A stretch of 23,140 nt of DNA from a virus. Taxonomy: Duplodnaviria; Heunggongvirae; Uroviricota; Caudoviricetes. The notes under the pieces are model-generated. The model was not told where the DNA came from, made no database searches, and worked only from the letters and a program-made list of their open reading frames with translations. The translations under genes and the position numbers were made by a program. The stretch lies in the IMG/VR virus record IMGVR_UViG_2869924733_000002; one strand, written 5' to 3'. Every line of letters starts with the position of its first letter. The first letter of the stretch is position 1. Positions 1 through 23,140 of this stretch are shown here, piece after piece.

Positions 1-819
1 ATGTGTCAGGTATTTGGTGTATCCAGGAGCGGTTATTACAACTGGGTACAGCATGAACCCTCAGACAGAAAACAAAGTGATGAGCGGCTAAAACTGGAGA
101 TTAAGGTGGCACATATCCGCACTCGCGAAACATATGGAACCCGGCGGCTCCAGACGGAGCTGGCAGAGAATGGCATCATCGTTGGTCGTGACCGACAGGC
201 ACGTCTTCGTAAGGAGCTAAGGCTACGCTGTAAGCAGAAACGCAAGTTCAGAGCGACTACGAACCCGAACCACAATCTGCCAGTTGCGCCAAATCTGCTG
301 AACCAGACGTTCGCTCCTACAGCACCAAATCAGGTCTGGGTGGCGGACCTGACGTATGTTGCCACACAGGAGGGATGGTTGTACCTCGCTGGCATCAAAG
401 ATGTTTATACGTGCGAAATTGTCGGCTACGCCATGGGAGAGCGCATGACAAAAGAGCTGACAGGTAAAGCCCTGTTTATGGCGCTCAGGAGCCAGCGCCC
501 ACCTGCCGGGCTAATCCACCACTCTGATCGAGGTTCACAGTACTGCGCATACGATTACCGGGTCATACAGGAGCAGTCTGGTCTGAAAACATCAATGTCG
601 CGTAAAGGTAACAGTTACGACAACGCTCCGATGGAAAGCTTCTGGGGAACGCTGAAAAATGAGAGCCTGAGCCACTATCGTTTTAATAACCGGGATGAAG
701 CCATCTCAGTAATACGGGAATACATTGAGATTTTCTACAATCGTCAGCGTCGTCACTCTCGTCTGGGGAATATCTCCCCGGCAGCCTTCAGGGAAAAATA
801 TCATCAGATGGCTGCTTAA
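1..819 (+). CDS. IS3-family transposase OrfB (IS600-like); may continue upstream of the window
   Basis: 272-aa ORF from position 1 with IS3-family DDE/RNaseH-fold motifs (NQVWVADLTY, HSDRGSQY, YDNAPMESFW, YNRQRRHS). Confidence 0.9.
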   Translation: MCQVFGVSRSGYYNWVQHEPSDRKQSDERLKLEIKVAHIRTRETYGTRRLQTELAENGIIVGRDRQARLRKELRLRCKQKRKFRATTNPNHNLPVAPNLLNQTFAPTAPNQVWVADLTYVATQEGWLYLAGIKDVYTCEIVGYAMGERMTKELTGKALFMALRSQRPPAGLIHHSDRGSQYCAYDYRVIQEQSGLKTSMSRKGNSYDNAPMESFWGTLKNESLSHYRFNNRDEAISVIREYIEIFYNRQRRHSRLGNISPAAFREKYHQMAA

Positions 820-862
820 AAAAAGAACAAATGGTAGTGTCCGCTATTGCCAGTACACCTCA
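1..862 (+). mobile_element. IS3-family insertion sequence (IS600-like), right part; left end is off-window
   Basis: The reverse complement of 826-862 reads TGAGGTGTACTGGCAATAGCGGACAC..., an IS3-type terminal inverted repeat. The element ends ...CA at 861-862, 43 bp after the OrfB stop. Confidence 0.6.
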
Positions 863-1002
863 CACGCCATAACGGACTATATCGTTGGATATTACAGCGC
901 ACTAAGACCGCACGAATATAACGGTGGGTTACCCCCAAACGAATCGGAAAATCGATACTGGAAAAACTCTAACTCGGTGGCCAGTTTTTGTTGACCACTT
1001 CA
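863..1002 (+). mobile_element. IS911-type right-end remnant (OrfB C-terminus plus IRR), interrupted upstream by the IS600-like element
   Basis: Encodes ...[41 protein letters not shown], which I recall as the IS911 OrfB C-terminus. 978-1002 is the reverse complement of TGAAGTGGTCAACAAAAACTGGCCA (IS911 IRR from memory). Ends ...CA at 1002. Confidence 0.65.
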
Positions 1003-1512
1003 ATATGCAACGCCGGGTGGCATGGATAAACCCGGAAGAGAGTAAATCAAACCGCGCAATCGGCGTTGCGCTGAATGATACTGCATGTCGCGTTTTGAAA
1101 AAACAAATCGGGAATCATCACCGTTGGGTATTTGTGTACAAGGAAAGCTGTACCAAACCAGACGGAACGAAAGCGCCAACAGTAAGGAAGATGCGGTATG
1201 ACGCAAACAGTAAGGAAGATGCGGTATGACGCAAACACAGCCTGGAAAGCGGCGCTGAGACGAGCTGGTATTGATGATTTCAGATTTCACGACTTGAGAC
1301 ACACCTGGGCAAGTTGGCTGGTTCAAGCCGGAGTCCCGTTGTCAGGGTTACAGGAAATGGGTGGCTGGGAGTCTATCGAAATGATTCGTCGATATGCTCA
1401 CCTCGCGCCTAATCACCTTACCGAACACGCACGGCAAATAGACTCGATTCTGAACCCATCGGTCCCAAATTTGTCCCAGTCAAAAAATAAGGAAGGTACT
1501 AATGATGTGTAA
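1003..1512 (+). pseudogene. int: Lambdoid tyrosine integrase, 3' fragment: N-terminus removed by the IS, and frameshifted by a 28-bp duplication
   Basis: Catalytic C-terminal motifs are present ([37 protein letters not shown]). Reading starts directly at the IS end. The two ORF pieces (924-1229, 1198-1512) are offset by +1, which is exactly the shift a 28-bp duplication produces. Confidence 0.85.
1181..1236. repeat. Perfect 28-bp tandem duplication (agtaaggaagatgcggtatgacgcaaac x2)
   Basis: 1181-1208 and 1209-1236 are identical. Removing one copy restores ...[26 protein letters not shown]... Confidence 0.95.
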
Positions 1513-8803: not shown

Positions 8804-9887
8804 TTAATCACCCCATAGTGAAGAAAAGTTACTGCTGGCTGCTGGCTGTGATACCTGCTCAGATTGCGGCAATGTCTGCGACGAAGAAGAAGTTCCTCTG
8901 TCAACTGCTGAAATAACCCGCAAAGCATCATAAGCTCGACCAGAAGCAGCTTTCAGCGAATTGAACTGGTTTTCCATCTTCCGGCGCTTGGTATCAATGG
9001 TTTTTGTGGAGTCGCCAGGCTGAGGGAAATACATTTGATAATATTTTGACATTTCAGCAGGTGCGATAGCTGCCCCTGTTTCCTGACGGAGTATTGCCAT
9101 TATTGCGTCATTAGCATTAACAACGTATTGCTGCTCTGTTGGGCTGAGCGTTAAGTTAGCCAGCGTCCCATTACCCAAAGCATTATTAATGATCGCCACT
9201 CGCTGTGGGCTAAGCTGGTCTTTCAGTGTATCTATTGAATCAAGAGCATCCCTAACCCTGTATGCAAATCCAGCAGCTTTTTTAGCCCCTTCTGGCGACT
9301 TTTCCATGATCTTTTGGGCTGTTGGCAAAGCTATTGGACGAAACCCATCTCCAGATATTGGCTGGTTTAGTTTTCCCTGCTCTTCACTTCCGTCTGTGTA
9401 GTATTTTGTGACAGTGCCATCATCGTTTTCTCTAACACTCATTAATTTTTTGGCGTTTGTATTAATTCCAGCCGCTGCCGCAAATGCCGCCGCCCCCTCT
9501 GGATCCGCCTTTAACATTTGAGCGTACTGATTGTAATTCTGCATTGCTGCTGTTGGTGCATATGCTGACGTTAACGCATTTGCTCGGCTAATATCCTGCC
9601 CTCTCGCCTGAAGTGCTTCGCCAGCCTGATTGCTGCGGATTGTCTCTGCCAACTTGCCACGCTCAATATCCCGACCTTCCATTTGATCTTTGATATCGAA
9701 ATACTTCTCATGACCGAGAGAAAACAGTGCCATACTACCAGCAAGCCGCTGGAATCCCTGTGGATCATTAACATGCATTTCGGCAACAGACTCAGGAGAA
9801 ATTCCCAAGCGACGCATTTCATCTTCGTTATCTGCTATGAATTTTCCAAATGCCCCAGTTCCGAGCGAAGATGCGATTTGAGCACTA
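8804..9887 (-). pseudogene. P22 gp20-type DNA-transfer protein, 3' portion (split by IS630)
   Basis: Continues in frame from 11041-11380 once IS630 and one TA are removed (...HLATSAQIASSLGTGAFGKF...). The restored gene is 473 aa. I recall P22 gp20 as about 471 aa. Confidence 0.7.
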
Positions 9888-11040
9888 AATAGCTGCGCTT
9901 AATACCGCTACACTTTTGCCAGTCCATGTTTGCCTCCGGGGAATGGGCTGACGGTTTCCATAAAATGGCGAACTTTTTTCAACAGTTGCCACATTGAGCG
10001 GCACTGATGATTACGCGTTATTGTGTCGTGAAGTGCCTGCCATAGCCGTTCAACATGATTCACCCATGGCGAGTAAACCGGCTGATAAATGACCCTGAAC
10101 TTCGGGTTCTCCTTCAGCCAGCTCTGTGTTTCCCGGCTTTTGTGGATAATGTAGTTGTCCACGATCAGCGTGATGGTTTTCGCCCGACGGTATGTCGCTT
10201 TAAGCCGCTTCAGCAGGCTGATGAACAGCGCCGAACTTTTGCTGTTGCCGCCCACATAGCTGACTTTACCTGTCCCGCTGTGCAGCGCTCCGGCCAGATA
10301 ATATTTTTCATTCTGTCCCGGCGTGACCACCCGTTTTTGCTGTCCGCGCAGTTGCCAGTCCGCACCGATTTTGGGATGAAGATGGATATCCACTTCATCT
10401 TCATAAAAGACCGGATGCTCTGCGCTGCATTCGTCCAGTGCTTTATGGATTGCTGCCATCTTTTCATCTTTATGCGGGTCACGGATACGCAGAGTTGGCG
10501 CAGCCCTTCGCCACACAATCCCCGCAGACGGCAACCAGCGGCGAACGGTTCCGGCATTTAACTGGCAACCGGTTATCTCATTGATTTTTATTGCCAGCAG
10601 TTCTGTACTCCAGCGTGAACGCTGGTAGCCAAAGTCGCCGGGAGAATGTTTTACCAGCTCACGTAACAGTGTGCAGATATGCTCAAACGGCCAGCGACGG
10701 GCACGCCCGGCAGGTAATGATTTCAGTCCCTCAACACCCGACTGCGTGAACCAGTTAATCCAGCGTCCAACAGAGGAACGGGCGCAGCAGAGCGTTCTGG
10801 CAACGTCGCTGACACGGTCGCCCCGGTGCAGCATCAGCATGGCAGTCAGTCTGCGGGCATAATTTTTATCGTGTGTTTTATGGATGGCTTTCTGCATCAG
10901 GCGTCGTTCGTCACGGGAAATTGGTGCTATGATCGGCATTGCTCAGTCCGGTTGGTGATTTGTTTTGATTTGGCGATTGATCAGATCGCACAATCCGGGC
11001 TAAGTTCCCTCAAAATGATCTACTATTCCGCGCAGCTATT
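9888..11040 (-). mobile_element. IS630, 1153 bp
   Basis: Imperfect terminal IRs beginning AATAGCTGCGC at both ends. TA duplication at 9886-9887 and 11041-11042, which restores a CTAG target. The 1153-bp length matches my recollection of IS630. Confidence 0.9.
9908..10939 (-). CDS. IS630 transposase (343 aa)
   Basis: Full-length ORF MPIIAPISRDERRLMQKAIHKTHDKNYARRL... recognised as the IS630 (Tc1/mariner-like DDE) transposase. Confidence 0.95.
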   Translation of the reverse strand: MPIIAPISRDERRLMQKAIHKTHDKNYARRLTAMLMLHRGDRVSDVARTLCCARSSVGRWINWFTQSGVEGLKSLPAGRARRWPFEHICTLLRELVKHSPGDFGYQRSRWSTELLAIKINEITGCQLNAGTVRRWLPSAGIVWRRAAPTLRIRDPHKDEKMAAIHKALDECSAEHPVFYEDEVDIHLHPKIGADWQLRGQQKRVVTPGQNEKYYLAGALHSGTGKVSYVGGNSKSSALFISLLKRLKATYRRAKTITLIVDNYIIHKSRETQSWLKENPKFRVIYQPVYSPWVNHVERLWQALHDTITRNHQCRSMWQLLKKVRHFMETVSPFPGGKHGLAKV

Positions 11041-11380
11041 TAGTCGCAAGATGACCAATAGAATTTCTCTGGTCGTCATCAATAAAGCCCATCCCTTTCT
11101 GAACGCTTTCAAATTCTTCTGGATACTCAGAAATAAGACTGCGCATTTTGTTTCTGTCTCCAGACTCAAAAGCCCCGGCATATGCTTTCTGAAACTCTGC
11201 TTTACGCTGTTGTTGACGTGCCTGCTGATTAATCTCAGCAACGCCTCTTAGCCCCTGTAGCGCCATTAAACCTACGTTTGGGTGCTGCTGATACTGCACA
11301 GGCTGAGGAACGGAAGAACGAGGAGCATTATCATTTTGCGGTGCCATGCTAGGCAGCCCGCCAAGTTGCCATGTCGCCAT
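11041..11380 (-). pseudogene. P22 gp20-type DNA-transfer protein, 5' portion
   Basis: The start overlaps the gp7-like stop (TAATG). The apparent stop at 11036-11038 lies inside the IS630 end. Confidence 0.7.
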
Positions 11381-12057
11381 TAGAATCCAAGCCCCCCAAC
11401 AAGACCAATAAGCCCACCACCAATAGCCCCGGCGACATTACCTATACCCGGAACAACGGAACCAAGTTGCGCACCCGCTAAAGCGCCTGATGCCGCCCCA
11501 CCAATACCACGCGCAAGACTGGATGGCTGCTGCGCCTGACCTGCACGAATAGCGCCAAGCCCCTGCAAGAGTTGCCCGGTATTATTGGCGTAGTTTTGCC
11601 CTGCTGTTGCCTGCCCTGATGCCGCATTCATCCCGACATTTAGCAGGTTTCCATAATTTTGCATTTGCCCACTGAGCCAATTGTTATAAAGCATGGGCGC
11701 AATGGAAGATAACTGGTTACTGGTAGCTGTTGAGCCAAGCCCCCCGGTAGCTTCTGCTGAGACAAGGTTCTGATAACGGGCCTGATCTGCCTGTGTTTTA
11801 TATAAACCAGAACCAAAGAAATCATTCGCGGCTTTATTCTGCCCTTCCAGAGTCATCAGTCCTTGCAGTTGTTGTAAAGCAGGCAATCCGACTTCTGCAT
11901 ACGGCTTGAGATTATTCATCACCGTATTCCACTGCTCGCGCTGCAAATCAATTGCCTGCTGCTGGGCCTTCGCCTGAGCTTTAGAGGCACCACCATCACC
12001 GCCTTTTTCGTATACGGCACGATTGAGATGTTTATGAGCTATATGGGTAATTAACAT
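11380..12057 (-). CDS. P22 gp7-type DNA-transfer (ejection) protein, 225 aa
   Basis: Size and position match gp7 (about 229 aa as recalled). It has a Gln/Asn-rich body and a Gly-rich hydrophobic tail, and is translationally coupled on both sides. Confidence 0.7.
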   Translation of the reverse strand: MLITHIAHKHLNRAVYEKGGDGGASKAQAKAQQQAIDLQREQWNTVMNNLKPYAEVGLPALQQLQGLMTLEGQNKAANDFFGSGLYKTQADQARYQNLVSAEATGGLGSTATSNQLSSIAPMLYNNWLSGQMQNYGNLLNVGMNAASGQATAGQNYANNTGQLLQGLGAIRAGQAQQPSSLARGIGGAASGALAGAQLGSVVPGIGNVAGAIGGGLIGLVGGLGF

Positions 12058-12512
12058 TCGCTGAATTCCTTATATTGTTGCCGAGTTAACTGATAAAGCG
12101 TTACGCCGACGGGTTTACCACATCTGATATAAGCATCATCAAGGTGACCAACACGGGTAGCGCCAAGCAAACGGATAATTGCCCGTCCATATTTCGTGGT
12201 GTCAGGAACCATAGTGATGCTGTTAAGGAATGGTGAGTTTTCGAGAAGCCATTTGCAGAATAATCGATGCCCTTGCAGTGCATATTCACCACGGAATCCG
12301 GGGTCGTACACCGCATGGCATTCAACAACGCTATGCCAGAAGTTACGCACTTCATGAACGCCAGCCAGCACTAATCCTTCGTAGATGCCGAGATATACCG
12401 CATCAGGCTTGATGTAGTACGTGTGCCCCGGCTCAACAATATTTTCGGTATTGCCTGGCTCGTTAAGAAAGGCCTGTAATCGCACAGGGTTATCAATAAA
12501 TTTTAGTTCCAT
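12051..12512 (-). CDS. gp14-position protein (DUF2824/GNAT-fold-like), 153 aa
   Basis: Sits directly upstream of the gp7-like gene, as gene 14 does in P22-like phages. YDPGFRGEYALQGHRLFCKWLL resembles a degenerate GNAT motif A. The family name is from memory. Confidence 0.55.
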   Translation of the reverse strand: MELKFIDNPVRLQAFLNEPGNTENIVEPGHTYYIKPDAVYLGIYEGLVLAGVHEVRNFWHSVVECHAVYDPGFRGEYALQGHRLFCKWLLENSPFLNSITMVPDTTKYGRAIIRLLGATRVGHLDDAYIRCGKPVGVTLYQLTRQQYKEFSEC

Positions 12513-16733: not shown

Positions 16734-17336
16734 TCAGTGCGTCACTGGTTCCGCTGGCATGCCGTTTTCATTCAGTTCAGCTATAAAGCTGTTGTGAAGT
16801 TCAGCAAGCGTTTCACGACCAAATGGAGTCAGTGCTCCTTGTTCCACATCCATCATGGCTCTGTAGAAAATGATGGCGCGTTCTGTGCCAGACTCGATGC
16901 CAAAACGTTCTATCATCGCTCCCTCAATGTTGTTTGCCATAGCGAGGCGCTCTGCTACTGGATACAGCGGCATGGCGACGATGCCGTTGGAATAAACAGC
17001 CACTTCGGAAGGATTGCCAGTATCATCAATGATGCTGACAGTGCCGTTTTCCTCTCTCATTTCCAGCATGAATACTGTTGCGATCAGCCATCTCCACATA
17101 ATGACGTTATGCTGTGATGTGTAATCGAAATATCCCTGGTTGCCGCCATCGGCAATAGCGAGATGTATTGACATACCTTCATCTGGTTTATCGTCATAAT
17201 CCCCGGCATCCAGACGATTTACGGCATCAATATATGAGACGGCCTCAACGCGTTCTGTCATGCCATCGTTGCTGCGGTACATGATGTTTACGCCGTCAGG
17301 CGTTGCTTCTGTATGGAAAGTTAAGAAATTATTCAT
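16734..17336 (-). CDS. Hypothetical protein, 200 aa (start at MNNFLTF)
   Basis: The ATG overlaps the upstream stop (CATGAATAA). The C-terminus FYRAMMDVEQGALTPFGRETLAEL resembles the motif in the two downstream genes. Confidence 0.6.
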   Translation of the reverse strand: MNNFLTFHTEATPDGVNIMYRSNDGMTERVEAVSYIDAVNRLDAGDYDDKPDEGMSIHLAIADGGNQGYFDYTSQHNVIMWRWLIATVFMLEMREENGTVSIIDDTGNPSEVAVYSNGIVAMPLYPVAERLAMANNIEGAMIERFGIESGTERAIIFYRAMMDVEQGALTPFGRETLAELHNSFIAELNENGMPAEPVTH

Positions 17337-17550
17337 GTTTCGCCTCGCCTGAATGATTCTGTAACTCATATTTGCCCAACAATTCGTCCGCTTCCTGAAT
17401 AGCTTCTGGTACGCCATTGAGCAGTGACATAACCGCGCCAATCATTAACTTGTCTCTGTTGCTGGGGCTGGCCCCTTCAAGCCAGAACCCTAAAACAGTC
17501 TGAACCTGTTCGATGCGACATTGCGCTTCAATGAGCTGGATGTTGGTCAT
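17329..17550 (-). CDS. Small hypothetical protein, 73 aa
   Basis: Shares a 4-nt ATGA overlap with the upstream gene. Predicted helical. Confidence 0.55.
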   Translation of the reverse strand: MTNIQLIEAQCRIEQVQTVLGFWLEGASPSNRDKLMIGAVMSLLNGVPEAIQEADELLGKYELQNHSGEAKHE

Positions 17551-17810
17551 TTCGCACTCTCCACATCGATTAAACCGATATCTATCAGGGAGGTAACTTT
17601 TTGTAGCCAGCTATTGATTACTGTCGCCTGTTCCCCGCCCACCGAGGGAACAATCTCATTCATCACATGAACCAGACCTGTGCGCGCTCTGGTAAGCCGT
17701 TCAGTCGCGCAATCTGCGGGAGTGAATGTGTCTGGATATGGCTCTTCACGCCCCAGCAATGATTCAATTTCCAGCTCACACGGATGACGATAAATTAAGT
17801 TGATATTCAT
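17547..17810 (-). CDS. Small hypothetical protein, 87 aa
   Basis: Shares a 4-nt ATGA overlap with the upstream gene. Confidence 0.55.
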   Translation of the reverse strand: MNINLIYRHPCELEIESLLGREEPYPDTFTPADCATERLTRARTGLVHVMNEIVPSVGGEQATVINSWLQKVTSLIDIGLIDVESAK

Positions 17811-18001
17811 TTTTCACCCCCAAGAATTACCAGCTCGGCACGGGCATCGTTAACCAAAGATGAGCACGCTTTAATCGCATCCACGACATCAGTAGCGTCC
17901 ATTTCTTCAGCCGAAAGACTGACAGCAACCAGGACAGCCGCTGCTTGCTCGATTAATTGAAGTGCGGACGTAAGGCGAGGGGTATTAATTGAGTTATTCA
18001 T
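17807..18001 (-). CDS. Small hypothetical protein, 64 aa (start at MNNSINT)
   Basis: The ATG overlaps the upstream stop (CCAATGAATAA). Confidence 0.5.
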   Translation of the reverse strand: MNNSINTPRLTSALQLIEQAAAVLVAVSLSAEEMDATDVVDAIKACSSLVNDARAELVILGGEK

Positions 18002-18212
18002 TGGTTGCCCCCGTTTTTCCTGGCATTTCGCCACCTTCCAGCAGGAAATGAACGTCACGAACGGCGAGATCCAATATCGCGAGTAACGCCTTCAGTCTTT
18101 CGTCTCGTGAGGGAGAGTTGCTCACCAGAATGTCGTTAATCACTTCTGTCAGTGTGATGATCTGGCTTGTGCGTTCGAGGGGATCCATATGCACATCGTA
18201 GGTTTTAATCAT
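17994..18212 (-). CDS. Small hypothetical protein, 72 aa (start at MIKTYDV)
   Basis: The ATG overlaps the Icd-like stop (ACATGATTAA) and follows GGAGGTGG. It occupies the same frame as the 355-codon ORF. Confidence 0.5.
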   Translation of the reverse strand: MIKTYDVHMDPLERTSQIITLTEVINDILVSNSPSRDERLKALLAILDLAVRDVHFLLEGGEMPGKTGATNE

Positions 18213-19061
18213 GTGCCACCTCCATGCGGATACGACCAGCAAAAAAGCAGATGTGATCGCGCACCAGAGAACGGCGAGCATCGCGTTCAGACTCGGCAGC
18301 AATATGATGAATTTTGGCGGTAATTGTCGGGCAATCGCGGCGAACTGCGGCGATAATCCAGATAAATTGCGGTTTTTGGGTAGTGGTAGTAGCCAGCATG
18401 TGGCAGCCTCCTTGTACTGGGAGTTCTTCCCACCACCGGAGCTGCGAAACTCGCTGGTGGTGGACTGAACAGAGTTCGCAGTACCGGCGTACAAGGAAAC
18501 CGGCCAGCCTTTCGGCTGCCCTGTCCAGCCCACCATAATTTTGCAAGCGACGCGGATTATAACCGCATCACTGAAAAAAGTGTGAGTCTGGCTAACGGCA
18601 CAAAAAAAGACGCTCGGCGCGTCATGTGTCGCCTCGTACATTTCCGGGCTGCGAAACCCGGCACCCGTTTTATGAGGTGCCTTATAACCATAAACCGTGT
18701 TGCCGCATAACGGCAAGCTCTTTTTTATGGACTCCGAAAACTCACTATTGGAAGCACCAGATGCACAATACATCGCGCTCATTTCGTTAACGTCGCGCGT
18801 GTGGACGAAGGTTTTTGTGGAGTCACTACGCGAGCAGAGAAAGCCATCTACGACCAGAAATTCTCTGGCGCAGCCGCCGACCTTCTCAACGCTAACACCA
18901 TCGACCGTAATTTCTGACATAGTTAAGGCATCCGCTCCCACCACCAGAAAATGATAAACTTTGCTTGTATCTGCTGTATTAATGCCAGACTTTGCTGTCA
19001 TATTGCTGGATTTTGGCGACATACCAGCCAGTGAAAATATCTTCTTCTGGACGGTTAGCAT
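17994..19061 (-). CDS. 355-codon open frame, probably composite; only the 5' part (about 18546-19061) is likely to be an independent gene
   Basis: The start is strongly coupled (GGAGGTTAACAAATG overlapping the upstream stop). The frame then runs through the Ash/RNA region, across the Icd-like gene in another frame, and into the 72-aa gene. Confidence 0.35.
18205..18399 (-). CDS. Host cell division inhibitor Icd-like protein, 64 aa
   Basis: [21 protein letters not shown]...[10 protein letters not shown]...FFAGRI matches the P4 Icd-like pattern from memory. AAGGAGG lies 7 nt upstream. Confidence 0.65.
   Translation of the reverse strand: MLATTTTQKPQFIWIIAAVRRDCPTITAKIHHIAAESERDARRSLVRDHICFFAGRIRMEVAHD
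18400..18545 (-). ncRNA. Candidate P4 CI / P1 C4-type immunity RNA region (the stretch usually annotated as 'Ash family protein')
   Basis: Translates as [34 protein letters not shown] (Ash-like). It holds a GNRA hairpin (CAGCC-GAAA-GGCTG) and a CCACCACC/GGTGGTGG stem. The position upstream of icd matches P4. Confidence 0.3.
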
Positions 19062-19237
19062 TTGTTAACCTCCGCGAACTCCTTCATGAAGCGCGCCAGC
19101 GGTTGTACGCATGGCGATTGATACCCGTCGCGATAAAACGTCACTCGGTTGTGAGACACGCTTTCGACAGTAACGAGTGCTCCGTGGGCATCCTTGTAGC
19201 GTTTTTGAGGTTGTGGTGTTCCTGTCGGCTTAAACAT
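19055..19237 (-). CDS. DUF4222-like small protein, 60 aa (start at MFKPTG)
   Basis: GGAGGTGG RBS. The ATG overlaps the upstream stop by 8 nt. The motif ...HGALVTVESVSHNRVTFYRDGY..CVQPL..F..EF is recalled as DUF4222. Confidence 0.55.
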   Translation of the reverse strand: MFKPTGTPQPQKRYKDAHGALVTVESVSHNRVTFYRDGYQSPCVQPLARFMKEFAEVNKC

Positions 19238-20063
19238 GGACCACCTCCAGACGCTTAGCGAGCCAGCGTTGCGACAGGCGGGTGAGTTCTCCTTTGCGCT
19301 GCTCATATTCCATGCCCATATCAATTAACGTGATATTGGTGCTTTCGAGATATGAGAGGTGCTCAAGTTGTTCTGCGTTCATATGGTCGCGAGGTTCGCC
19401 AGAATAGCCATTTATCCGCGCCCACTGCTTAGCAGTTAGCCCACCAAGAACGATACGAGAAATCATATTGCTCTCGTTTGTGTAGTGGTGTTGCTGCGTC
19501 GTTTTCCCCTGCTCGGCACGGGCCATATTCAGCGCATCGCACATTGGCTTAAAGTTGTTTGCGGCACTGATACGGGCTTTTAGCTGGCGACGATAGCGGG
19601 CGGCGATTTCAGGAACGCTACGCTGTAATTCTTCCTCGCACTGGATGAAATAACGGCGGATAGCGCGACCCTGATCATTGCGTTCGATCATTGCCAGTTC
19701 TTTCGCCATTCCGACACTTAACAGATAGTCTTTGCCGGGTCTGCCAGACTGCTTAATCTTTCTGTAAGCCGCGCCATTCGGGCTTTTCCCCAAATTTGGG
19801 GAAATAGTTTTATGGACTGAGTAATCGTGCCCAATGGTGAAGTCATATTCAGAGATGCGATCAGTGATCCATGTAGAGAAGTCTTTTCCCACGCCCAACG
19901 CTTTGTGTAACGCTTTTGCGCTAACAATATTGGTTTCACGCCCACCGATATGACCAGGAATAACCGGGACAATTGCGGCAAATTCATTACCGTTAATTGT
20001 GCTCAGAGAGGCGTTCAGATGAGGGGCGGCCTCAGAAATTAATCTGCTTTTTTCGATGTTCAT
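19230..20063 (-). CDS. Phage antirepressor-like protein (AntA/AntB-type N-terminal domain), 277 aa
   Basis: VSAKALHKALGVGKDFSTWITDRI...DYLLSVGMAKELAMIERNDQGRAIRRYFIQCEEEL is the antirepressor/Bro-type pattern. Confidence 0.75.
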   Translation of the reverse strand: MNIEKSRLISEAAPHLNASLSTINGNEFAAIVPVIPGHIGGRETNIVSAKALHKALGVGKDFSTWITDRISEYDFTIGHDYSVHKTISPNLGKSPNGAAYRKIKQSGRPGKDYLLSVGMAKELAMIERNDQGRAIRRYFIQCEEELQRSVPEIAARYRRQLKARISAANNFKPMCDALNMARAEQGKTTQQHHYTNESNMISRIVLGGLTAKQWARINGYSGEPRDHMNAEQLEHLSYLESTNITLIDMGMEYEQRKGELTRLSQRWLAKRLEVVHV

Positions 20064-20075
20064 TTTCAGTCTCCG

Positions 20076-20507
20076 TTAAGCGGCGTTAAACGCGTCCGGG
20101 TAGAGTTTCAGAATGTCGGCAATTTCCTGCTGAGAAAGTCCGTTGTGATCATTTATGTTCGCAAGATGGTTAATATGAGTGATCACTTTCAGAACATCAC
20201 CACGGCAGGAGAAACGGTAGCGAAGGTGTGTTCCGATACCATCAGGATTCTTTTCGTCGATACGCTCCAGAGTGATTCCAAGCTGGCGTTCTAACTCTGT
20301 TGCATAGTTACGACCAGAAGACAGACGGCAGTAGCGAAGAATGTCATTTTCTGTCCATCCCTCTATACCAGTACGCAGCATATAGACTCTGGCACGATGC
20401 TTTTTCGGTGTGCGCTTTGGTGCTTGAAGGGATTTTGTAAGGGGCGTAACATCAGATACGCGAATATCTGAATTAGCCGCCTGTAATGGGCGGTTTTTCT
20501 TATTCAT
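20076..20507 (-). CDS. Hypothetical protein, 143 aa, with a basic N-terminus
   Basis: The start overlaps the alpA stop (TAATG). No family recognised. Confidence 0.6.
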   Translation of the reverse strand: MNKKNRPLQAANSDIRVSDVTPLTKSLQAPKRTPKKHRARVYMLRTGIEGWTENDILRYCRLSSGRNYATELERQLGITLERIDEKNPDGIGTHLRYRFSCRGDVLKVITHINHLANINDHNGLSQQEIADILKLYPDAFNAA

Positions 20508-20704
20508 TACGCTACCTCGCCACGCGACTCAGCGATGCGCTGATTAATCCATTCTTCAATTTCACTTTCAATAAACGCAATTGATCGGCTTCCAATCTTT
20601 ACAGATTGAGGGAATCGCTGTTCTTTGATGAGCCGATAAATCCACGCTTTGCTGTAACCAGTACGGCGTTGAACCTCAGAAAGACGAATAAATGATTGAG
20701 ACAT
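20507..20704 (-). CDS. alpA: AlpA-family regulator
   Basis: MSQSFIRLSEVQRRTGYSKAWIYRLIKEQRFPQSVKIGSRSIAFIESEIEEWI. AGGAG RBS. Confidence 0.85.
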   Translation of the reverse strand: MSQSFIRLSEVQRRTGYSKAWIYRLIKEQRFPQSVKIGSRSIAFIESEIEEWINQRIAESRGEVA

Positions 20705-20786
20705 GTTTACTCCTATATTCTGTCATCTTCTTTAATGGACATCAGTAGACAGAAAGGAGATTAAACAAACCGGTGAATGGGTGATA

Positions 20787-20857
20787 GCGGATAAAAATAA
20801 AATATTTTTTTGAGAAGATTATCCGCTTTGAAATACACAGTAGCGTATTCAAAGCGG
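20787..20857 (-). terminator. Two overlapping hairpins between the 293-aa gene and alpA (terminator or attenuator-like)
   Basis: CCGCTTTGAA(A)TAC / GTATTCAAAGCGG at 20823-20857 and GCGGATAA / TTATCCGC at 20787-20826 share the CCGC/GCGG segment. There is no clean U-tract. Confidence 0.3.
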
Positions 20858-20901
20858 AAATCGCGAAATTTACTTAAAACGTTTACGTAGGATTTTGCTT
20901 G

Positions 20902-21783
20902 CTATAAATCTCTACTCATTAAATCAGATATTTTTATCAAGCTCATTTCTCTGTCTTTGTTTACATAAAGCTGAAGCAAGCGGGTGTATCTCTCGCTTAT
21001 AGATTCAAGTGCAAAAGGCTTTATTGATTCCTTAATAGCCTGCGTATCTTTCGGATCATCACTAAAAACCAAGGCAGAAATCATCGGATTGCTCACTTCC
21101 TTACCTGACTTCTCACCCCAAATCAGCAGATCAACAATAGGTATCACTCTATTAGATATCAACTTCTGAAGGGTCTTTAATCCAATCCTTTTCTGAGCGA
21201 CATGCTCTCTCTCTGGTACTTTTAACTCTTTTCGCCATAGAGGTAGAAGGTGAGTCAGGCTGGTAATAATTTCGTCATCAGTGGCGTCATCTAAATCTAT
21301 AGAAACGAGTATGATGTTAGGGGAACAATTACTTAGGTTTCCAGTAACACTCGCAAGCATAGCGTTTGCCTTGAGGTAGCAATCCTCTTCGTCTCTTTTA
21401 AAAAAGCCTTGATCTATCGATGAGAAAGAGTACATGGCCAGCTCTGAAAATGTTACTGGACTAACCCCCATAGCTGAAGATAATGAGGGAAGATCATCGT
21501 ACTCATTTCTTAATGATGGGGCTTCATCATTTACTTTGCGAATAAATTCTTCGACCTCTTCCTCTTCTTCATTGAGAATGGTTAGGTTAGGATCGCCCGA
21601 AAAAATCCTTTCATATTTTATATCGTACTCTTCTTTGAATATAGCAGTGTCATCTTTTGCATGACGCAATAAAAAATCGCGCCACTCTAATTCTTGAATC
21701 AAGTCCGGCAAGGTTAAATCATTTAAAAATTCATAATTACTAATATCAAACCATGCTAAATCTTGTTTTTTGGCTCTCACCAT
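20902..21783 (-). CDS. AT-rich orphan protein, 293 aa, adjacent to the integrase (possibly DUF6387-like; uncertain)
   Basis: Long ORF with a plausible RBS. GC looks like roughly the mid-30s percent by eye, against about 50% in the flanks. It has an acidic EEEEEVEE tract and no motif I recognise. Confidence 0.7.
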   Translation of the reverse strand: MVRAKKQDLAWFDISNYEFLNDLTLPDLIQELEWRDFLLRHAKDDTAIFKEEYDIKYERIFSGDPNLTILNEEEEEVEEFIRKVNDEAPSLRNEYDDLPSLSSAMGVSPVTFSELAMYSFSSIDQGFFKRDEEDCYLKANAMLASVTGNLSNCSPNIILVSIDLDDATDDEIITSLTHLLPLWRKELKVPEREHVAQKRIGLKTLQKLISNRVIPIVDLLIWGEKSGKEVSNPMISALVFSDDPKDTQAIKESIKPFALESISERYTRLLQLYVNKDREMSLIKISDLMSRDL

Positions 21784-21925
21784 ACGCCACCCCGCGCCCC
21801 TAATTCTGACGGCTATGCCAGCCCGTAGGGGTGTACGGGTTTTCGGGGATCAGCCTAGACATAGCCTATTCTTTGTTCGTCTACATAAGTCTACTACCAT
21901 TGCTTAACACGGTCTATTCATACAG

Positions 21926-23140
21926 TTAAGCTCGTTTCCCAAACGAACCATGAACAACGTTCTCCTCCTTCTCCAGCGCATCCATATAGTCGGCATACCA
22001 TTGAAGCATCTCCCGCCTTCCATCCAGATATTGCGCATGGTTGTATGTGCCACGAATTGAGTTCTTATCAACGTGAGCGAGCTGCGTTTCTATCCACGCG
22101 GTGTTATAGCCCTGCTCATGCAAAATCGTGCTCATAGTGTGCCGGAACCCATGACCAGTTACACGTCCAGCGTAGCCAATGCGCTTAAACACTTGGTTTA
22201 TGCTGGCCTCACTCATTGTTTTCCTTGGATCATTGCGCCCGGGAAACATAAGAGGGTAATTGCCTGTTATTTCTCTAATCTTCCCAATAAGCGAAAGAGC
22301 CTGATCAGACAATGGCACAATATGAGGCCGCCGCATTTTCATACGTGAAGCGGGTATCTCCCAGATAGCCTTGTTGAAATCAATTTCATCCCATAATGCG
22401 CCACGTAGTTCGCCAGTCCGCAAGCCGGTGATAATCAGTAGACGAGCCGCCATAACAACCAATGCGCTTCCTGAGTAACTGGACAATGCCTTGAAAAAAT
22501 CAGGTAATTCTTTAGCTGTAAGGAAAGGGTAATGATTAGATTCATGGCCTTGCATCGCGCTAGTAAGGTCTGGTGCAGGGTTATACTCTGCGCGACCAGT
22601 GACTATTGCATAGCGGAAAACTTCCCCGCACCGCTGCCTCACTTTTTTGGCTTTTTCTGTAGCACCGCGCCCCTCGATGCGCCGCAGCACATTCAGAAGT
22701 TCAAGTGGTTTGATTTCGGCGATTGGTTTTTTGCCAATGTAAGGGAACACATCTTTGTTGAAGGCTTCGAGGATGTCTGAAGCATAACCAGCAGACCATT
22801 TTTTTAATTTGCTGCTGTGCCACTCAAGGGCAATATCTTTGAAGGTGTTGTTTAACTGCGTTTCCCGGGCAATCTTTTCCTCTCGTTTCGCTTCCATCGG
22901 ATCGATACCACCAGCGATACCTCTTTTCGCATCTTCACGTTTTGCCCGAGCATCGGCTAGAGTAACCTCAGGATACACACCTAGTGCCAATAGCTTCTCT
23001 TTACCAGCTACACGATATTTAAGTCGCCAGTATTTACCTCCATTAGGTTTTACCAAGAGATACAAACCGCCACCATCGGCCAGCTTGTAAGCCTTCTCTT
23101 TTGGCTTGGCTGTGTCTATTTGACGGGCATTGAGTTTCAC
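21926..23140 (-). CDS. int: P4-type tyrosine integrase (DUF4102 N-terminal domain); start at or beyond the window edge
   Basis: N-terminal ...AKPKEKAYKLADGGGLYLLVKPNGGKYWRLKYRVAGKEKLLALGVYPEVTLADAR. C-terminal HGFRHTMSTILHEQGYN..WIETQLAH..........Y catalytic region. Confidence 0.9.
   Translation of the reverse strand: MKLNARQIDTAKPKEKAYKLADGGGLYLLVKPNGGKYWRLKYRVAGKEKLLALGVYPEVTLADARAKREDAKRGIAGGIDPMEAKREEKIARETQLNNTFKDIALEWHSSKLKKWSAGYASDILEAFNKDVFPYIGKKPIAEIKPLELLNVLRRIEGRGATEKAKKVRQRCGEVFRYAIVTGRAEYNPAPDLTSAMQGHESNHYPFLTAKELPDFFKALSSYSGSALVVMAARLLIITGLRTGELRGALWDEIDFNKAIWEIPASRMKMRRPHIVPLSDQALSLIGKIREITGNYPLMFPGRNDPRKTMSEASINQVFKRIGYAGRVTGHGFRHTMSTILHEQGYNTAWIETQLAHVDKNSIRGTYNHAQYLDGRREMLQWYADYMDALEKEENVVHGSFGKRA

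What the first reader, a model, noticed from the sequence alone, without database searches (positions are those of the whole stretch)
20902..21783. AT-rich 293-aa orphan in the integrase-proximal slot of the satellite
The gene is clearly lower in GC than its neighbours (roughly mid-30s percent by eye). It sits between the integrase and the alpA regulatory region, contains an acidic EEEEEVEE tract, and shows no enzymatic motif I can recognise. Integrase-adjacent positions in P4-like satellites are known hotspots for anti-phage cargo. A single-gene defence, anti-defence or abortive-infection factor is plausible but unproven.
Basis: inference. Interest (0 to 1): 0.5.

Follow-up and report, generated by a model that had tools for sequence, protein, structure and literature searches.

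The report
Satellite cargo gene behind RNA leader
The gene is real but is not an orphan: it belongs to a widespread uncharacterised family (DUF6387) that fills an exchangeable slot between the integrase and the master regulator of phage-parasitic islands, and a conserved RNA structure in front of it looks able to hide its ribosome-binding site.

Summary
The 293-aa ORF at 20902-21783(-) exists. It is the most AT-rich stretch of the window (38.0% GC against 48.3%), carries EEEEEVEE, and lies between a P4-type integrase and alpA.

It is not an orphan. It is a full-length Pfam DUF6387 protein (132 bits), and the family has 508 clusters at 50% identity. With a deep alignment AlphaFold gives a confident all-alpha model (pLDDT 93). 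That model has no relative in the PDB or BFVD. PADLOC and NCBIfam give no match.

The island is an EcCIMP1-like PICI at thrW. EcCIMP1 itself, shown experimentally to be functional, lacks this gene, so the gene is accessory.

The slot is exchangeable. At least 9 unrelated cargo families of about 1 kb occupy it, and none matches Pfam or PADLOC apart from DUF6387.

Every cargo ORF starts right after the Rfam 'int-alpA' RNA (21798-21865). A hairpin loop of that RNA co-varies with two downstream boxes, one of which is the cargo's Shine-Dalgarno sequence. This implies a cis-acting translational gate, not the trans sRNA that Rfam lists.

DUF6387 stays next to alpA down to about 22% identity. Its function is unproven. 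My best guess is a non-enzymatic factor made in response to phage, acting either in phage conflict or as a regulator of AlpA.

The parts
20902..21783 (-). DUF6387-family protein gene: 293 aa, pI 4.6, all-alpha, no transmembrane segment. It is the cargo ORF of the int-alpA slot.
   Evidence: ORF. Pfam PF19924 at 132 bits. Homologues. AlphaFold2 pLDDT 93.2. No fold relatives.
21547..21570 (-). Acidic tract EEEEEVEE (residues 72-79), within a predicted helix. It is only partly conserved.
21798..21865 (-). Rfam RF02996 'int-alpA' RNA, a three-way junction. P1 is 21858-21865 with 21812-21819. P2 is 21854-21855 with 21845-21846. P3 is 21835-21839 with 21822-21826.
   Evidence: cmscan 46.7 bits against a gathering score of 35.8. 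On 53 distinct leaders, 98.5% of cells are paired and 10 of 15 pairs show changes on both sides.
21827..21834 (-). P3 hairpin loop ACACCCCU. It mimics an anti-Shine-Dalgarno sequence and is complementary to box 1 and to the SD.
21797..21801 (-). Box 1 (AGGGG), the first partner of the P3 loop and a decoy for the SD.
   Evidence: It co-varies with the loop across 19 loop types.
21788..21793 (-). Box 2 (GGGGUG), the Shine-Dalgarno sequence of the DUF6387 ORF, 4 nt before the ATG. It is the second, mutually exclusive partner of the P3 loop.
   Evidence: Duplex energy -13.1 kcal/mol.
21888..21916 (-). Candidate sigma-70 promoter for the leader and cargo: TAGACC, 17 nt, TAGACT. It lies in the conserved 57 nt between the integrase stop codon and the RNA. 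This is inference only.
   Evidence: The conserved (A/G)TAGAC hexamers are seen. The consensus scan did not flag the site.
20823..20857 (-). Strong inverted repeat about 45 nt after the DUF6387 stop codon (-24.9 kcal/mol as RNA). It could be a terminator, attenuator or operator ahead of alpA.
   Evidence: The terminator scan did not flag it.
20705..20901 (-). The 197-bp AT-rich spacer (34% GC) between the cargo and alpA. It is swapped together with the cargo relative to EcCIMP1-type islands. The replaced block is 20696-21949.
20507..20704 (-). alpA (65 aa), the master activator / recombination directionality factor of the island and the constant downstream neighbour of DUF6387.
   Evidence: Pfam PF05930. 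Contexts. Role of AlpA in EcCIMP1: PMC11773190.
21926..23140 (-). P4-type tyrosine integrase (404 aa), integrating at thrW. It is the upstream neighbour.

Best explanation
What it is. The ORF is a DUF6387-family protein. It is the commonest and most ancient occupant of an exchangeable, single-ORF cargo slot of about 1 kb. The slot lies between the integrase and the master regulator alpA of an EcCIMP1-like phage-inducible chromosomal island (PICI) at thrW.

Shown:
- The gene is accessory. A functional PICI lacks it.
- The slot is filled by at least 9 unrelated protein families, or is empty.
- Each cargo ORF begins exactly at the end of a conserved leader, which contains the Rfam int-alpA RNA.
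- The P3 hairpin loop of that RNA co-varies with two downstream boxes, one of which is the cargo's Shine-Dalgarno sequence.

Inferred:
- The leader is a cis-acting translational gate with two mutually exclusive pseudoknots. Loop with SD would be off. Loop with box 1 would be on.
- DUF6387 is therefore made only under a particular condition, most plausibly phage infection or helper induction.
- The protein is a soluble, acidic, all-alpha protein with no sign of enzymatic activity. It most likely works by binding a partner.
- My preferred reading is a phage-conflict factor: interference with, or exclusion of, helper or competing phages, in the spirit of satellite hotspot cargo.
- A role as a modulator of AlpA-driven induction is almost as likely.
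For: Family and fold:
- Pfam DUF6387.
- 508 clusters at 50% identity, all about 260-330 aa with a single architecture.
- Confident novel all-alpha model with no PDB or BFVD relatives.
- The family-wide conserved residues are aromatic and Arg/Asp, not a catalytic set.

Accessory status:
- 97 genomes carry it, against 506 with the integrase and 347 with alpA.
- EcCIMP1 of strain MP1 is syntenic, lacks both the gene and the RNA, and is experimentally inducible, excisable and transducible (PMC11773190).

Slot variability:
-.
- The cargo interval is confined to +846 to +1275 nt before alpA in 36 loci.
- All cargo tested is AT-rich, at 38-42% GC.

Leader:
- Rfam hits lie immediately 5' of the cargo ORFs.
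- The leader is conserved up to the start codon in front of unrelated ORFs.
- Helices are supported: 98.5% of cells paired, against 32-49% in the slid controls.
- Loop/box co-variation: 19 loop types; the mean cognate Watson-Crick helix is 4.74 against 3.54+-0.22 for the SD and 4.42 against 3.12+-0.17 for box 1; 0 of 20000 permutations reach either value.
- The same Rfam family precedes HNH endonuclease ORFs in phage contigs. These are selfish genes whose expression is usually tightly limited.

Mobile-element restriction:
- Absent from genuine phage genomes and rare on plasmids.
- Always found in integrative islands.

EcCIMP1 gives unexplained superinfection immunity with no known defence system (PMC11773190). 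This shows that such islands carry uncharacterised anti-phage functions, although that island lacks DUF6387.
Against: - There is no experimental phenotype for any DUF6387 protein. Only two papers mention the name, both in gene tables.
- PADLOC gives no hit for it or for any alternative cargo. A generic defence hotspot would be expected to hold some known systems and cargo of very different sizes.
- In this island family the recognisable defence gene (Avs2) lies between att and int, not in this slot.
- DUF6387 stays directly upstream of alpA over very deep divergence. It does so even in ROD21-like islands where the integrase is at the far end. That fits a functional tie to AlpA better than free cargo.
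- The direction of the RNA switch, and what triggers it, are unknown.
- The single-sequence minimum-free-energy fold of the window leader is not the consensus fold and is no more stable than shuffles (z=-0.06).
- The permutation test ignores relatedness of the sequences.
Confidence: 0.4

Rival explanations
1. DUF6387 regulates or senses for the island's own life cycle. It would act on AlpA or on the alpA promoter, for example as an anti-activator, a co-factor, or a helper-phage sensor analogous to SaPI Stl in position and diversity. The variable families in the slot would then be alternative sensors with different helper specificities.
For: - DUF6387 followed by alpA, co-directional with a 130-200-nt spacer, in every context sampled from 100% down to about 22% identity, with one exception.
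- The pairing also holds at the attR end of ROD21-like islands and in a Serratia island.
- The block swapped relative to EcCIMP1 includes alpA's whole upstream region and its first 9 nt.
- Cargo sizes are uniform.
- There are no enzymatic motifs.
- The position matches that of stl in SaPIs (own knowledge).
Against: - EcCIMP1 is induced, excised and transferred without any slot gene.
- No DNA-binding domain was detected.
- The gene is co-directional with alpA, not divergent as stl is.
- One distant member (P0057) has no AlpA-family gene downstream.
Confidence: 0.3
2. DUF6387 is an anti-defence or establishment factor made early after the island enters a new cell, for example an acidic mimic or inhibitor of host restriction or defence proteins.
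For: - The protein is acidic (pI 4.6, net charge -20), and most other cargo families are acidic too.
- It sits next to the integrase with its own conserved putative promoter.
- The cargo is diverse, small and non-enzymatic.
Against: - The charge density is modest compared with known DNA mimics (own knowledge).
- Some cargo families are basic.
- No similarity to any solved anti-restriction fold.
- An SD-sequestering gate is unexpected for a protein needed immediately on entry.
Confidence: 0.1
3. The int-alpA RNA is an independent trans-acting small RNA, as Rfam lists it, and its position in front of the ORF is incidental. The ORF would be ordinary unregulated cargo.
For: - Rfam type is 'Gene; sRNA'.
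- The promoter/terminator scan finds nothing that defines the transcript.
Against: - The motif ends 13-16 nt before the start codon of unrelated ORFs in many loci.
- The conserved sequence runs through the SD to the ATG.
- The loop co-varies with the SD.
- There is no terminator between the RNA and the ORF.
Confidence: 0.08
4. DUF6387 is a core excision/integration factor of these islands, an accessory recombination directionality protein.
For: It is adjacent to the integrase and to the AlpA-family recombination directionality factor in many island types. In ROD21-like islands it is the terminal gene beside attR.
Against: - It is absent from a functional, excising PICI.
- It is absent from about four fifths of E. 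coli islands that have the same integrase.
- Unrelated proteins can replace it.
Confidence: 0.05

Closest known systems
Pfam PF19924 (DUF6387); RefSeq 'DUF6387 family protein', e.g. ORF 28 of ICEKp258.2 (KPNJ2_RS09320) next to the AlpA-family recombination directionality factor
   Same: Full-length match above the curated cut-off. Same length class. Same position directly upstream of an AlpA-family gene.
   Different: Nothing is known about function for any member. In ICEKp258.2 and ROD21-like islands the pair sits at the attR end, far from the integrase. Here it follows the integrase.
PICI EcCIMP1 of E. coli MP1 (helper phage Kapi1; PMC11773190)
   Same: Same attachment site (thrW beside proA) and the same gene order: int, alpA, 143-aa ORF, antA, DUF4222, ash, primase, DUF2824 and ejection-protein genes, perC.
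   Different: EcCIMP1 has a 427-bp unrelated spacer between int and alpA, in which the authors annotated a small ORF, EcCIMP1_002. It has no DUF6387 and no int-alpA RNA.
Defence hotspots of P4-like satellites and P2 phages (Rousset et al. 2022, PMC9122126; PMC13586616)
   Same: An integrase-proximal slot in a satellite, with presence/absence and replacement polymorphism of AT-rich cargo between conserved flanks.
   Different: - Here the cargo is always a single ORF of about 1 kb (or a split pair).
- None of the 9 families matches PADLOC.
- A structured RNA leader defines the 5' boundary at the start codon.
- psu/delta/sid are absent, so the island is not P4-like in the strict sense.
Rfam RF02996 int-alpA RNA (Weinberg et al. 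2017, PMC5737381)
   Same: Scores above the gathering threshold, with the same three helices.
   Different: - Rfam lists it as an sRNA gene.
- Here it behaves as the 5' leader of the next ORF, with loop-SD and loop-box 1 co-variation that is not in the Rfam structure line.
- It is also found without an integrase upstream (L274) and before HNH genes in phage contigs.
Ribosome-binding-site-sequestering leaders of free-standing homing endonuclease genes in T4-like phages (own knowledge)
   Same: A structured 5' leader occludes the SD of a selfish or possibly costly gene. Rfam int-alpA members precede HNH ORFs in phage contigs.
   Different: Different structure: a three-way junction with two alternative pseudoknot partners. 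The T4 cases are simple hairpins relieved by late promoters. No such timing information exists here.
SaPI Stl repressors (own knowledge)
   Same: Highly diverse proteins without recognisable family, encoded between the integrase and the island's regulatory/excision genes. Their diversity is tied to helper specificity.
   Different: stl is divergently transcribed, essential for repression and carries a helix-turn-helix domain. DUF6387 is co-directional with alpA, dispensable for a working PICI and has no detectable DNA-binding domain.

Membership tests
Pfam DUF6387 (PF19924) | Whole-protein HMM score above the gathering cut-off, over the full profile length | tested here: met
   132 bits against 28.9; residues 5-269 match profile positions 6-256 of 258.
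Known anti-phage defence systems (PADLOC-DB 2.0) | Match to any model of a defence or candidate-defence protein | tested here: not met
   0 families at E<=1 for the ORF. 0 relevant hits for 14 alternative cargo proteins.
Known anti-phage defence systems | Protection against phage when expressed | not testable with these tools
   Needs cloning and phage challenge.
Rfam int-alpA RNA (RF02996) | Covariance-model score above the gathering threshold | tested here: met
   46.7 bits against 35.8 at 21798-21865(-).
Rfam int-alpA RNA (RF02996) | Three helices supported by compensatory changes | tested here: met
   98.5% of cells paired. 10 of 15 pairs have changes on both sides. Slid controls give 32-49% paired. 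The alignment was fitted to the model.
Rfam int-alpA RNA (RF02996) | Acts in trans as a small RNA (the Rfam type) | tested here: inconclusive
   The position, the conservation up to the ATG and the loop-SD co-variation argue for a cis role. Transcript ends are unknown.
Cis-acting translational leader that sequesters the SD | An element complementary to the SD that co-varies with it | tested here: met
   19 loop types. Cognate helices are longer than permuted ones; 0 of 20000 permutations reach the observed value.
Cis-acting translational leader that sequesters the SD | A measured effect on translation, and a trigger | not testable with these tools
   Needs reporter fusions and structure probing.
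Gram-negative PICI | int and alpA co-directional at one end, a primase/replication gene, about 10-20 kb, integrated at a tRNA gene, and no full set of virion or lysis genes | tested here: met
   Annotations of syntenic records. Synteny with EcCIMP1.
Gram-negative PICI | Induction and packaging by a helper phage | not testable with these tools
   Shown for the syntenic EcCIMP1 only (PMC11773190).
P4-like satellite (SatelliteFinder core: int, psu, delta, sid, alpA, ash, alpha) | Presence of the psu-delta-sid helper-subversion operon | tested here: not met
   No such genes are annotated in the syntenic 20-kb island. int, alpA, ash and an alpha-like primase are present. I did not search the island with dedicated Psu/Delta/Sid profiles.
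Type III toxin-antitoxin (ToxIN-like) | A tandem-repeat RNA antitoxin upstream of the toxin gene | tested here: not met
   The leader is a single-copy three-way junction, not a repeat array.

The most novel reading that the evidence does not exclude
The int-alpA RNA is a phage-responsive translational switch. It gates a set of interchangeable cargo ORFs of about 1 kb, with DUF6387 as the archetype. These proteins would be the missing helper-phage sensors or modulators that control AlpA-driven induction of Gram-negative PICIs and excision of ROD21-like islands. They would be a functional counterpart of SaPI Stl, built from unrelated folds. The same RNA device would time expression of HNH homing endonucleases in phages.
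Probability: 0.15. Interest if true: 0.8.

Novelty: new variant of a known kind. Interest (0 to 1): 0.6.

Why it matters
- How helper phages switch on alpA in Gram-negative PICIs is an open question, and satellites are a rich source of new phage-conflict genes.
- This locus gives a compact, sequence-defined handle. The int-alpA leader marks the 5' edge of a cargo slot, and in my small sample that slot already yields at least 9 protein families with no Pfam or PADLOC match.
- DUF6387 heads that list. It has a confidently predicted fold with no solved relative.
- The work also re-reads an orphan Rfam motif as a probable cis-acting gate on the ribosome-binding site, with two alternative pseudoknots. 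Reporter fusions and compensatory mutations can test this directly.
- If the cargo proves to be defence or helper-sensing proteins, scanning for the leader would be a cheap way to mine more.

Tried and rejected
- Single-sequence AlphaFold2 failed (pLDDT 33). Only the 145-sequence alignment gave a usable model.
- NCBIfam gave nothing. PHROGs gave only an unknown-function family, phrog_23422.
- The consensus promoter/terminator scan flagged nothing useful at the gene's ends.
- The GTAGAC hexamers are not enriched over the whole window (5 found, 5.45 expected). Their local conservation rests on alignments only.
- I considered a hammerhead or other self-cleaving ribozyme for the CUGAU...GAAA junction. 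I rejected it because CUGAU lies in the variable P2 loop and is replaced by GUCGCU in other members.
- I considered the alternative slot proteins as remote DUF6387 relatives. hhalign gave probability 0.1% and BLAST found no link.
- I considered a type III toxin-antitoxin system. There is no repeat array.
- The metagenome pattern scan was mostly chance matches: 7 true leaders among 120 loci.
- The supplement of Weinberg 2017 and the EARL gene-conservation table are not held. I could not check what the discoverers wrote about int-alpA, nor how often DUF6387 occurs in EARL islands.
- No paper gives a function for SEN1999, the terminal ROD21 gene beside the recombination directionality factor. Its identity with DUF6387 is inferred from ICEKp258.2 only.
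Full report
THE OBSERVATION

The ORF 20902-21783 on the minus strand is there. It starts with ATG and encodes 293 aa. Its GC content is 38.0%. The whole window is 48.3%, the integrase gene 47.6%, and the genes further into the island 43-49%. Only 0.5% of all 882-nt windows are as AT-rich, and all of those overlap this locus. The tract EEEEEVEE is at residues 72-79.

The gene lies between a P4-type tyrosine integrase (21926-23140) and a 65-aa AlpA-family gene (20507-20704). All three are co-directional. The protein is acidic (pI 4.6) and has no long hydrophobic stretch.

It is a real gene. Full-length homologues of 42-92% identity occur in Escherichia, Salmonella, Klebsiella, Yersinia, Pantoea, Providencia, Morganella and others.

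NOT AN ORPHAN

The protein matches Pfam PF19924 (DUF6387) over its whole length: 132 bits against a cut-off of 28.9. RefSeq already names it 'DUF6387 family protein', WP_000251023.1. A profile search of 1.84 billion representative proteins finds 508 clusters at 50% identity with E<=0.001. Nearly all are 260-330 aa.

PADLOC and NCBIfam give nothing. PHROGs gives only an unknown-function family. Only two papers in the library contain the name, both in gene tables of genomic islands. In both, the gene is beside an AlpA-family gene.

STRUCTURE

Single-sequence AlphaFold2 failed. With a 145-sequence alignment the model is confident (pLDDT 93.2, pTM 0.87) and almost entirely helical. It has no meaningful relative by any search I could run:
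- Foldseek against the PDB: E>=1.9.
- Foldseek against BFVD: E>=1.
- Profile against PDB sequences: E>=0.4.

Across the diverse family the nearly invariant residues are W11, F12, Y17, R35, L180, R184, D218 and W222. This is not a recognisable catalytic set, and it suggests a binding protein.

THE ELEMENT

The window is an island at the thrW tRNA-Thr gene beside proA. It occurs in E. coli O111 and other lineages. Its gene order is int, DUF6387, alpA, a 143-aa ORF, antA, DUF4222, ash (overlapping C4 and isrK RNAs), small ORFs, a TOPRIM/DUF927 primase, DUF2824 plus P22-type ejection-protein genes, and perC.

Apart from the slot gene, this is the order of EcCIMP1 of strain MP1. EcCIMP1 has been shown experimentally to be induced, excised, circularised and transduced by the P22-like helper Kapi1, with alpA as master regulator (PMC11773190). 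No psu/delta/sid genes are annotated. 'PICI' is therefore the better label than 'P4-like'.

THE SLOT IS VARIABLE

- The gene's DNA is in 97 of 5426 complete E. coli genomes. The same integrase covers at least 80% of its length in 506 genomes, and alpA+orf143 in 347.
- STEC383, ECOL-18 and MP1 carry the same integrase (98-99% identity) and alpA (92%), but an unrelated, gene-less spacer of 427-466 bp. The replaced block in the window is 20696-21949, which includes everything upstream of alpA.
- Other E. coli islands carry unrelated ORFs of 239, 253 and 265 aa, or a 106+147-aa pair. hhalign finds no relation between the 253-aa protein and DUF6387.
The gene is accessory.

A CONSERVED RNA LEADER

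The 142 nt between the integrase stop codon and the DUF6387 start codon are far better conserved than the protein. This holds between E. coli, Klebsiella, Dickeya and Xenorhabdus, where the proteins share 25-65% identity.

Rfam places RF02996 'int-alpA RNA' at 21798-21865(-), at 46.7 bits against a gathering score of 35.8. It ends 14 nt before the ATG.

The same motif sits 13-16 nt before:
- DUF6387 genes in Yersinia, Providencia, Shimwellia, Gilliamella, Xenorhabdus and Dickeya;
- three DUF6387 genes of only about 22-25% identity, one of them with no integrase upstream;
- the unrelated slot ORFs.

Islands with an empty slot lack the motif.

To widen the sample I built a covariance model of the leader through the start codon. 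It found 54 leaders in loci gathered from IMG/VR and metagenomes. The ORFs that start at the end of the leader give 50 distinct proteins in at least 9 unrelated families. DUF6387 is the largest, with 14. None of the other families matches Pfam or PADLOC. In the main class, alpA starts 846-1275 nt after the cargo start codon. The cargo is therefore always about 1 kb.

A PROBABLE TRANSLATIONAL GATE

The three helices are well supported. 98.5% of cells are paired, 10 of 15 pairs show changes on both sides, and the slid controls give 32-49%.

Beyond the Rfam structure, the loop of the third hairpin is complementary to two downstream boxes:
- box 1, about 13-19 nt before the start codon;
- box 2, which is the Shine-Dalgarno sequence.

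Both boxes change together with the loop:

| Leader | P3 loop | Box 1 | Box 2 (SD) |
|---|---|---|---|
| most leaders | ACACCUCU | AGAGG | GAGGUG |
| this window | ACACCCCU | AGGGG | GGGGUG |
| L183 | UUCCCUUG | CAAGGGA | AAGGGA |
| L229 | AUUCCGUGA | UCACGG | ACGGA |
| L248 | UCCCGA | UCGGG | UCGGGA |
| L187 | UUUUCUCGG | CCGAGA | CGAGAGG |

Over 19 loop types, the mean cognate Watson-Crick helix is 4.74 against 3.54+-0.22 for permuted pairs in the SD window. For box 1 it is 4.42 against 3.12+-0.17. No permutation out of 20000 reaches either value. The permutation ignores relatedness of the sequences.

The two pairings use overlapping loop bases, so they exclude each other. I read this as a cis-acting switch on the cargo's ribosome-binding site. 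Which state is the default, and what flips it, is unknown. The single-sequence MFE fold of the window leader is a different, nested conformer and is no more stable than shuffles. Rfam lists the family as 'Gene; sRNA'. The discoverers' supplement is not held, so I cannot say whether they noted the pseudoknots.

Diverged but bona fide Rfam members (42-52 bits) lie in phage contigs in front of HNH endonuclease ORFs. The device is therefore not specific to the int-alpA context, and it accompanies genes whose expression is typically restrained.

LINK TO AlpA

In every context sampled but one, DUF6387 is followed after 130-200 nt by an AlpA-family gene. The sample runs from identical copies to about 22% identity. 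This also holds in ROD21-like mobilisable islands (ICEKp258.2), where the pair sits at the attR end and the integrase at the other end, and in a Serratia island. The family is absent from genuine phage genomes and rare on plasmids.

This persistence is the main argument that the protein may act with AlpA rather than being free cargo. Against that, EcCIMP1 works without it.

VERDICT

High confidence:
- This is a DUF6387 accessory gene in an exchangeable int-alpA slot of an EcCIMP1-like PICI.
- It is preceded by the int-alpA RNA, whose loop co-varies with the gene's SD.

Inferred:
- Translation is gated.
- The protein is a non-enzymatic binder made in response to phage.

My estimates for what it does:

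| Reading | Probability |
|---|---|
| phage-conflict factor | about 0.4 |
| modulator or sensor of AlpA-driven induction | about 0.3 |
| anti-defence or establishment factor | about 0.1 |

The remaining readings, scored under rival explanations, are a trans-acting sRNA (0.08) and a core excision factor (0.05).

The 'orphan' label is wrong.

Noticed in passing
window 18453-18540(-) and 18603-18680(-): A C4 antisense RNA (81 bits) and an isrK RNA (69 bits), plus a weak c4-a1b1 target match. This is a P4/P1-type RNA immunity region. All lie inside the 355-aa ORF that RefSeq calls 'ash family protein' (17994-19061), so much of that ORF is probably not coding. In related islands the same stretch is annotated as a truncated ash pseudogene plus an Icd-like gene.
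   Followed up: partly
L248, L156, L245, L187 (IMG/VR phage contigs): Bona fide Rfam int-alpA RNAs (42-52 bits in L248, L245 and L187; L156 was detected only with my own leader model) lie directly in front of HNH/HNH_3 endonuclease ORFs among phage structural genes. The family is therefore not confined to int-alpA intervals, and its name is misleading.
   Followed up: partly
L226:3672-3758 and L229:6784-6873: The same RNA, with a very different loop (AUUCCGUGA) and matching boxes, precedes a 111-112-aa ORF that has no Pfam match. The ORF lies just after several small ORFs that look like virion structural genes, judged by eye only.
   Followed up: no
window 19230-20063(-): The AntA/AntB-family antirepressor (277 aa) also matches the PADLOC candidate family PDC-S22 in its C-terminal half (E=1e-10, residues 165-266).
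   Followed up: no
L004:5786-9191 and L002:24198-27449: In related islands, the side of the integrase facing the attachment site carries large genes. One is an Avs2 (AVAST type 2) gene. In strain 6409, which holds this exact DUF6387 island, it is a 1083-aa hypothetical protein followed by an integrase fragment. The recognisable defence cargo of this island family sits there, outside the present window.
   Followed up: no
many related loci (e.g. L217, L024, L225, L161), 40 nt upstream of alpA: alpA itself is often preceded by a conserved hairpin, CUCGUAA-(ACCGCAAUAGACG)-UUACGAGGU, whose 3' arm contains the alpA Shine-Dalgarno sequence. This is a second, different ribosome-binding-site-occluding structure. 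The window's alpA lacks it and has GTCTAC-TGAT-GTCCAT instead.
   Followed up: no
L001 (E. coli O111 strain E2855) 17179-18392: In O111 strains the island is cut off by an IS1203 right after antA. The replication and packaging genes are missing, so int, DUF6387, alpA, orf143 and antA survive as a remnant.
   Followed up: no
window 1-1508: The first 1.5 kb of the window is not matched by the best-matching complete genomes, whose alignments start at 1501-1528. The junction there (insertion sequence or different flank) was not examined.
   Followed up: no
window 8804-12512(-): A DUF2824 gene and P22-type DNA-ejection/injection protein genes lie inside a satellite. In the syntenic record, strain 6409, the injection gene is annotated as frameshifted. 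The EcCIMP1 authors suspect these genes act in packaging.
   Followed up: no
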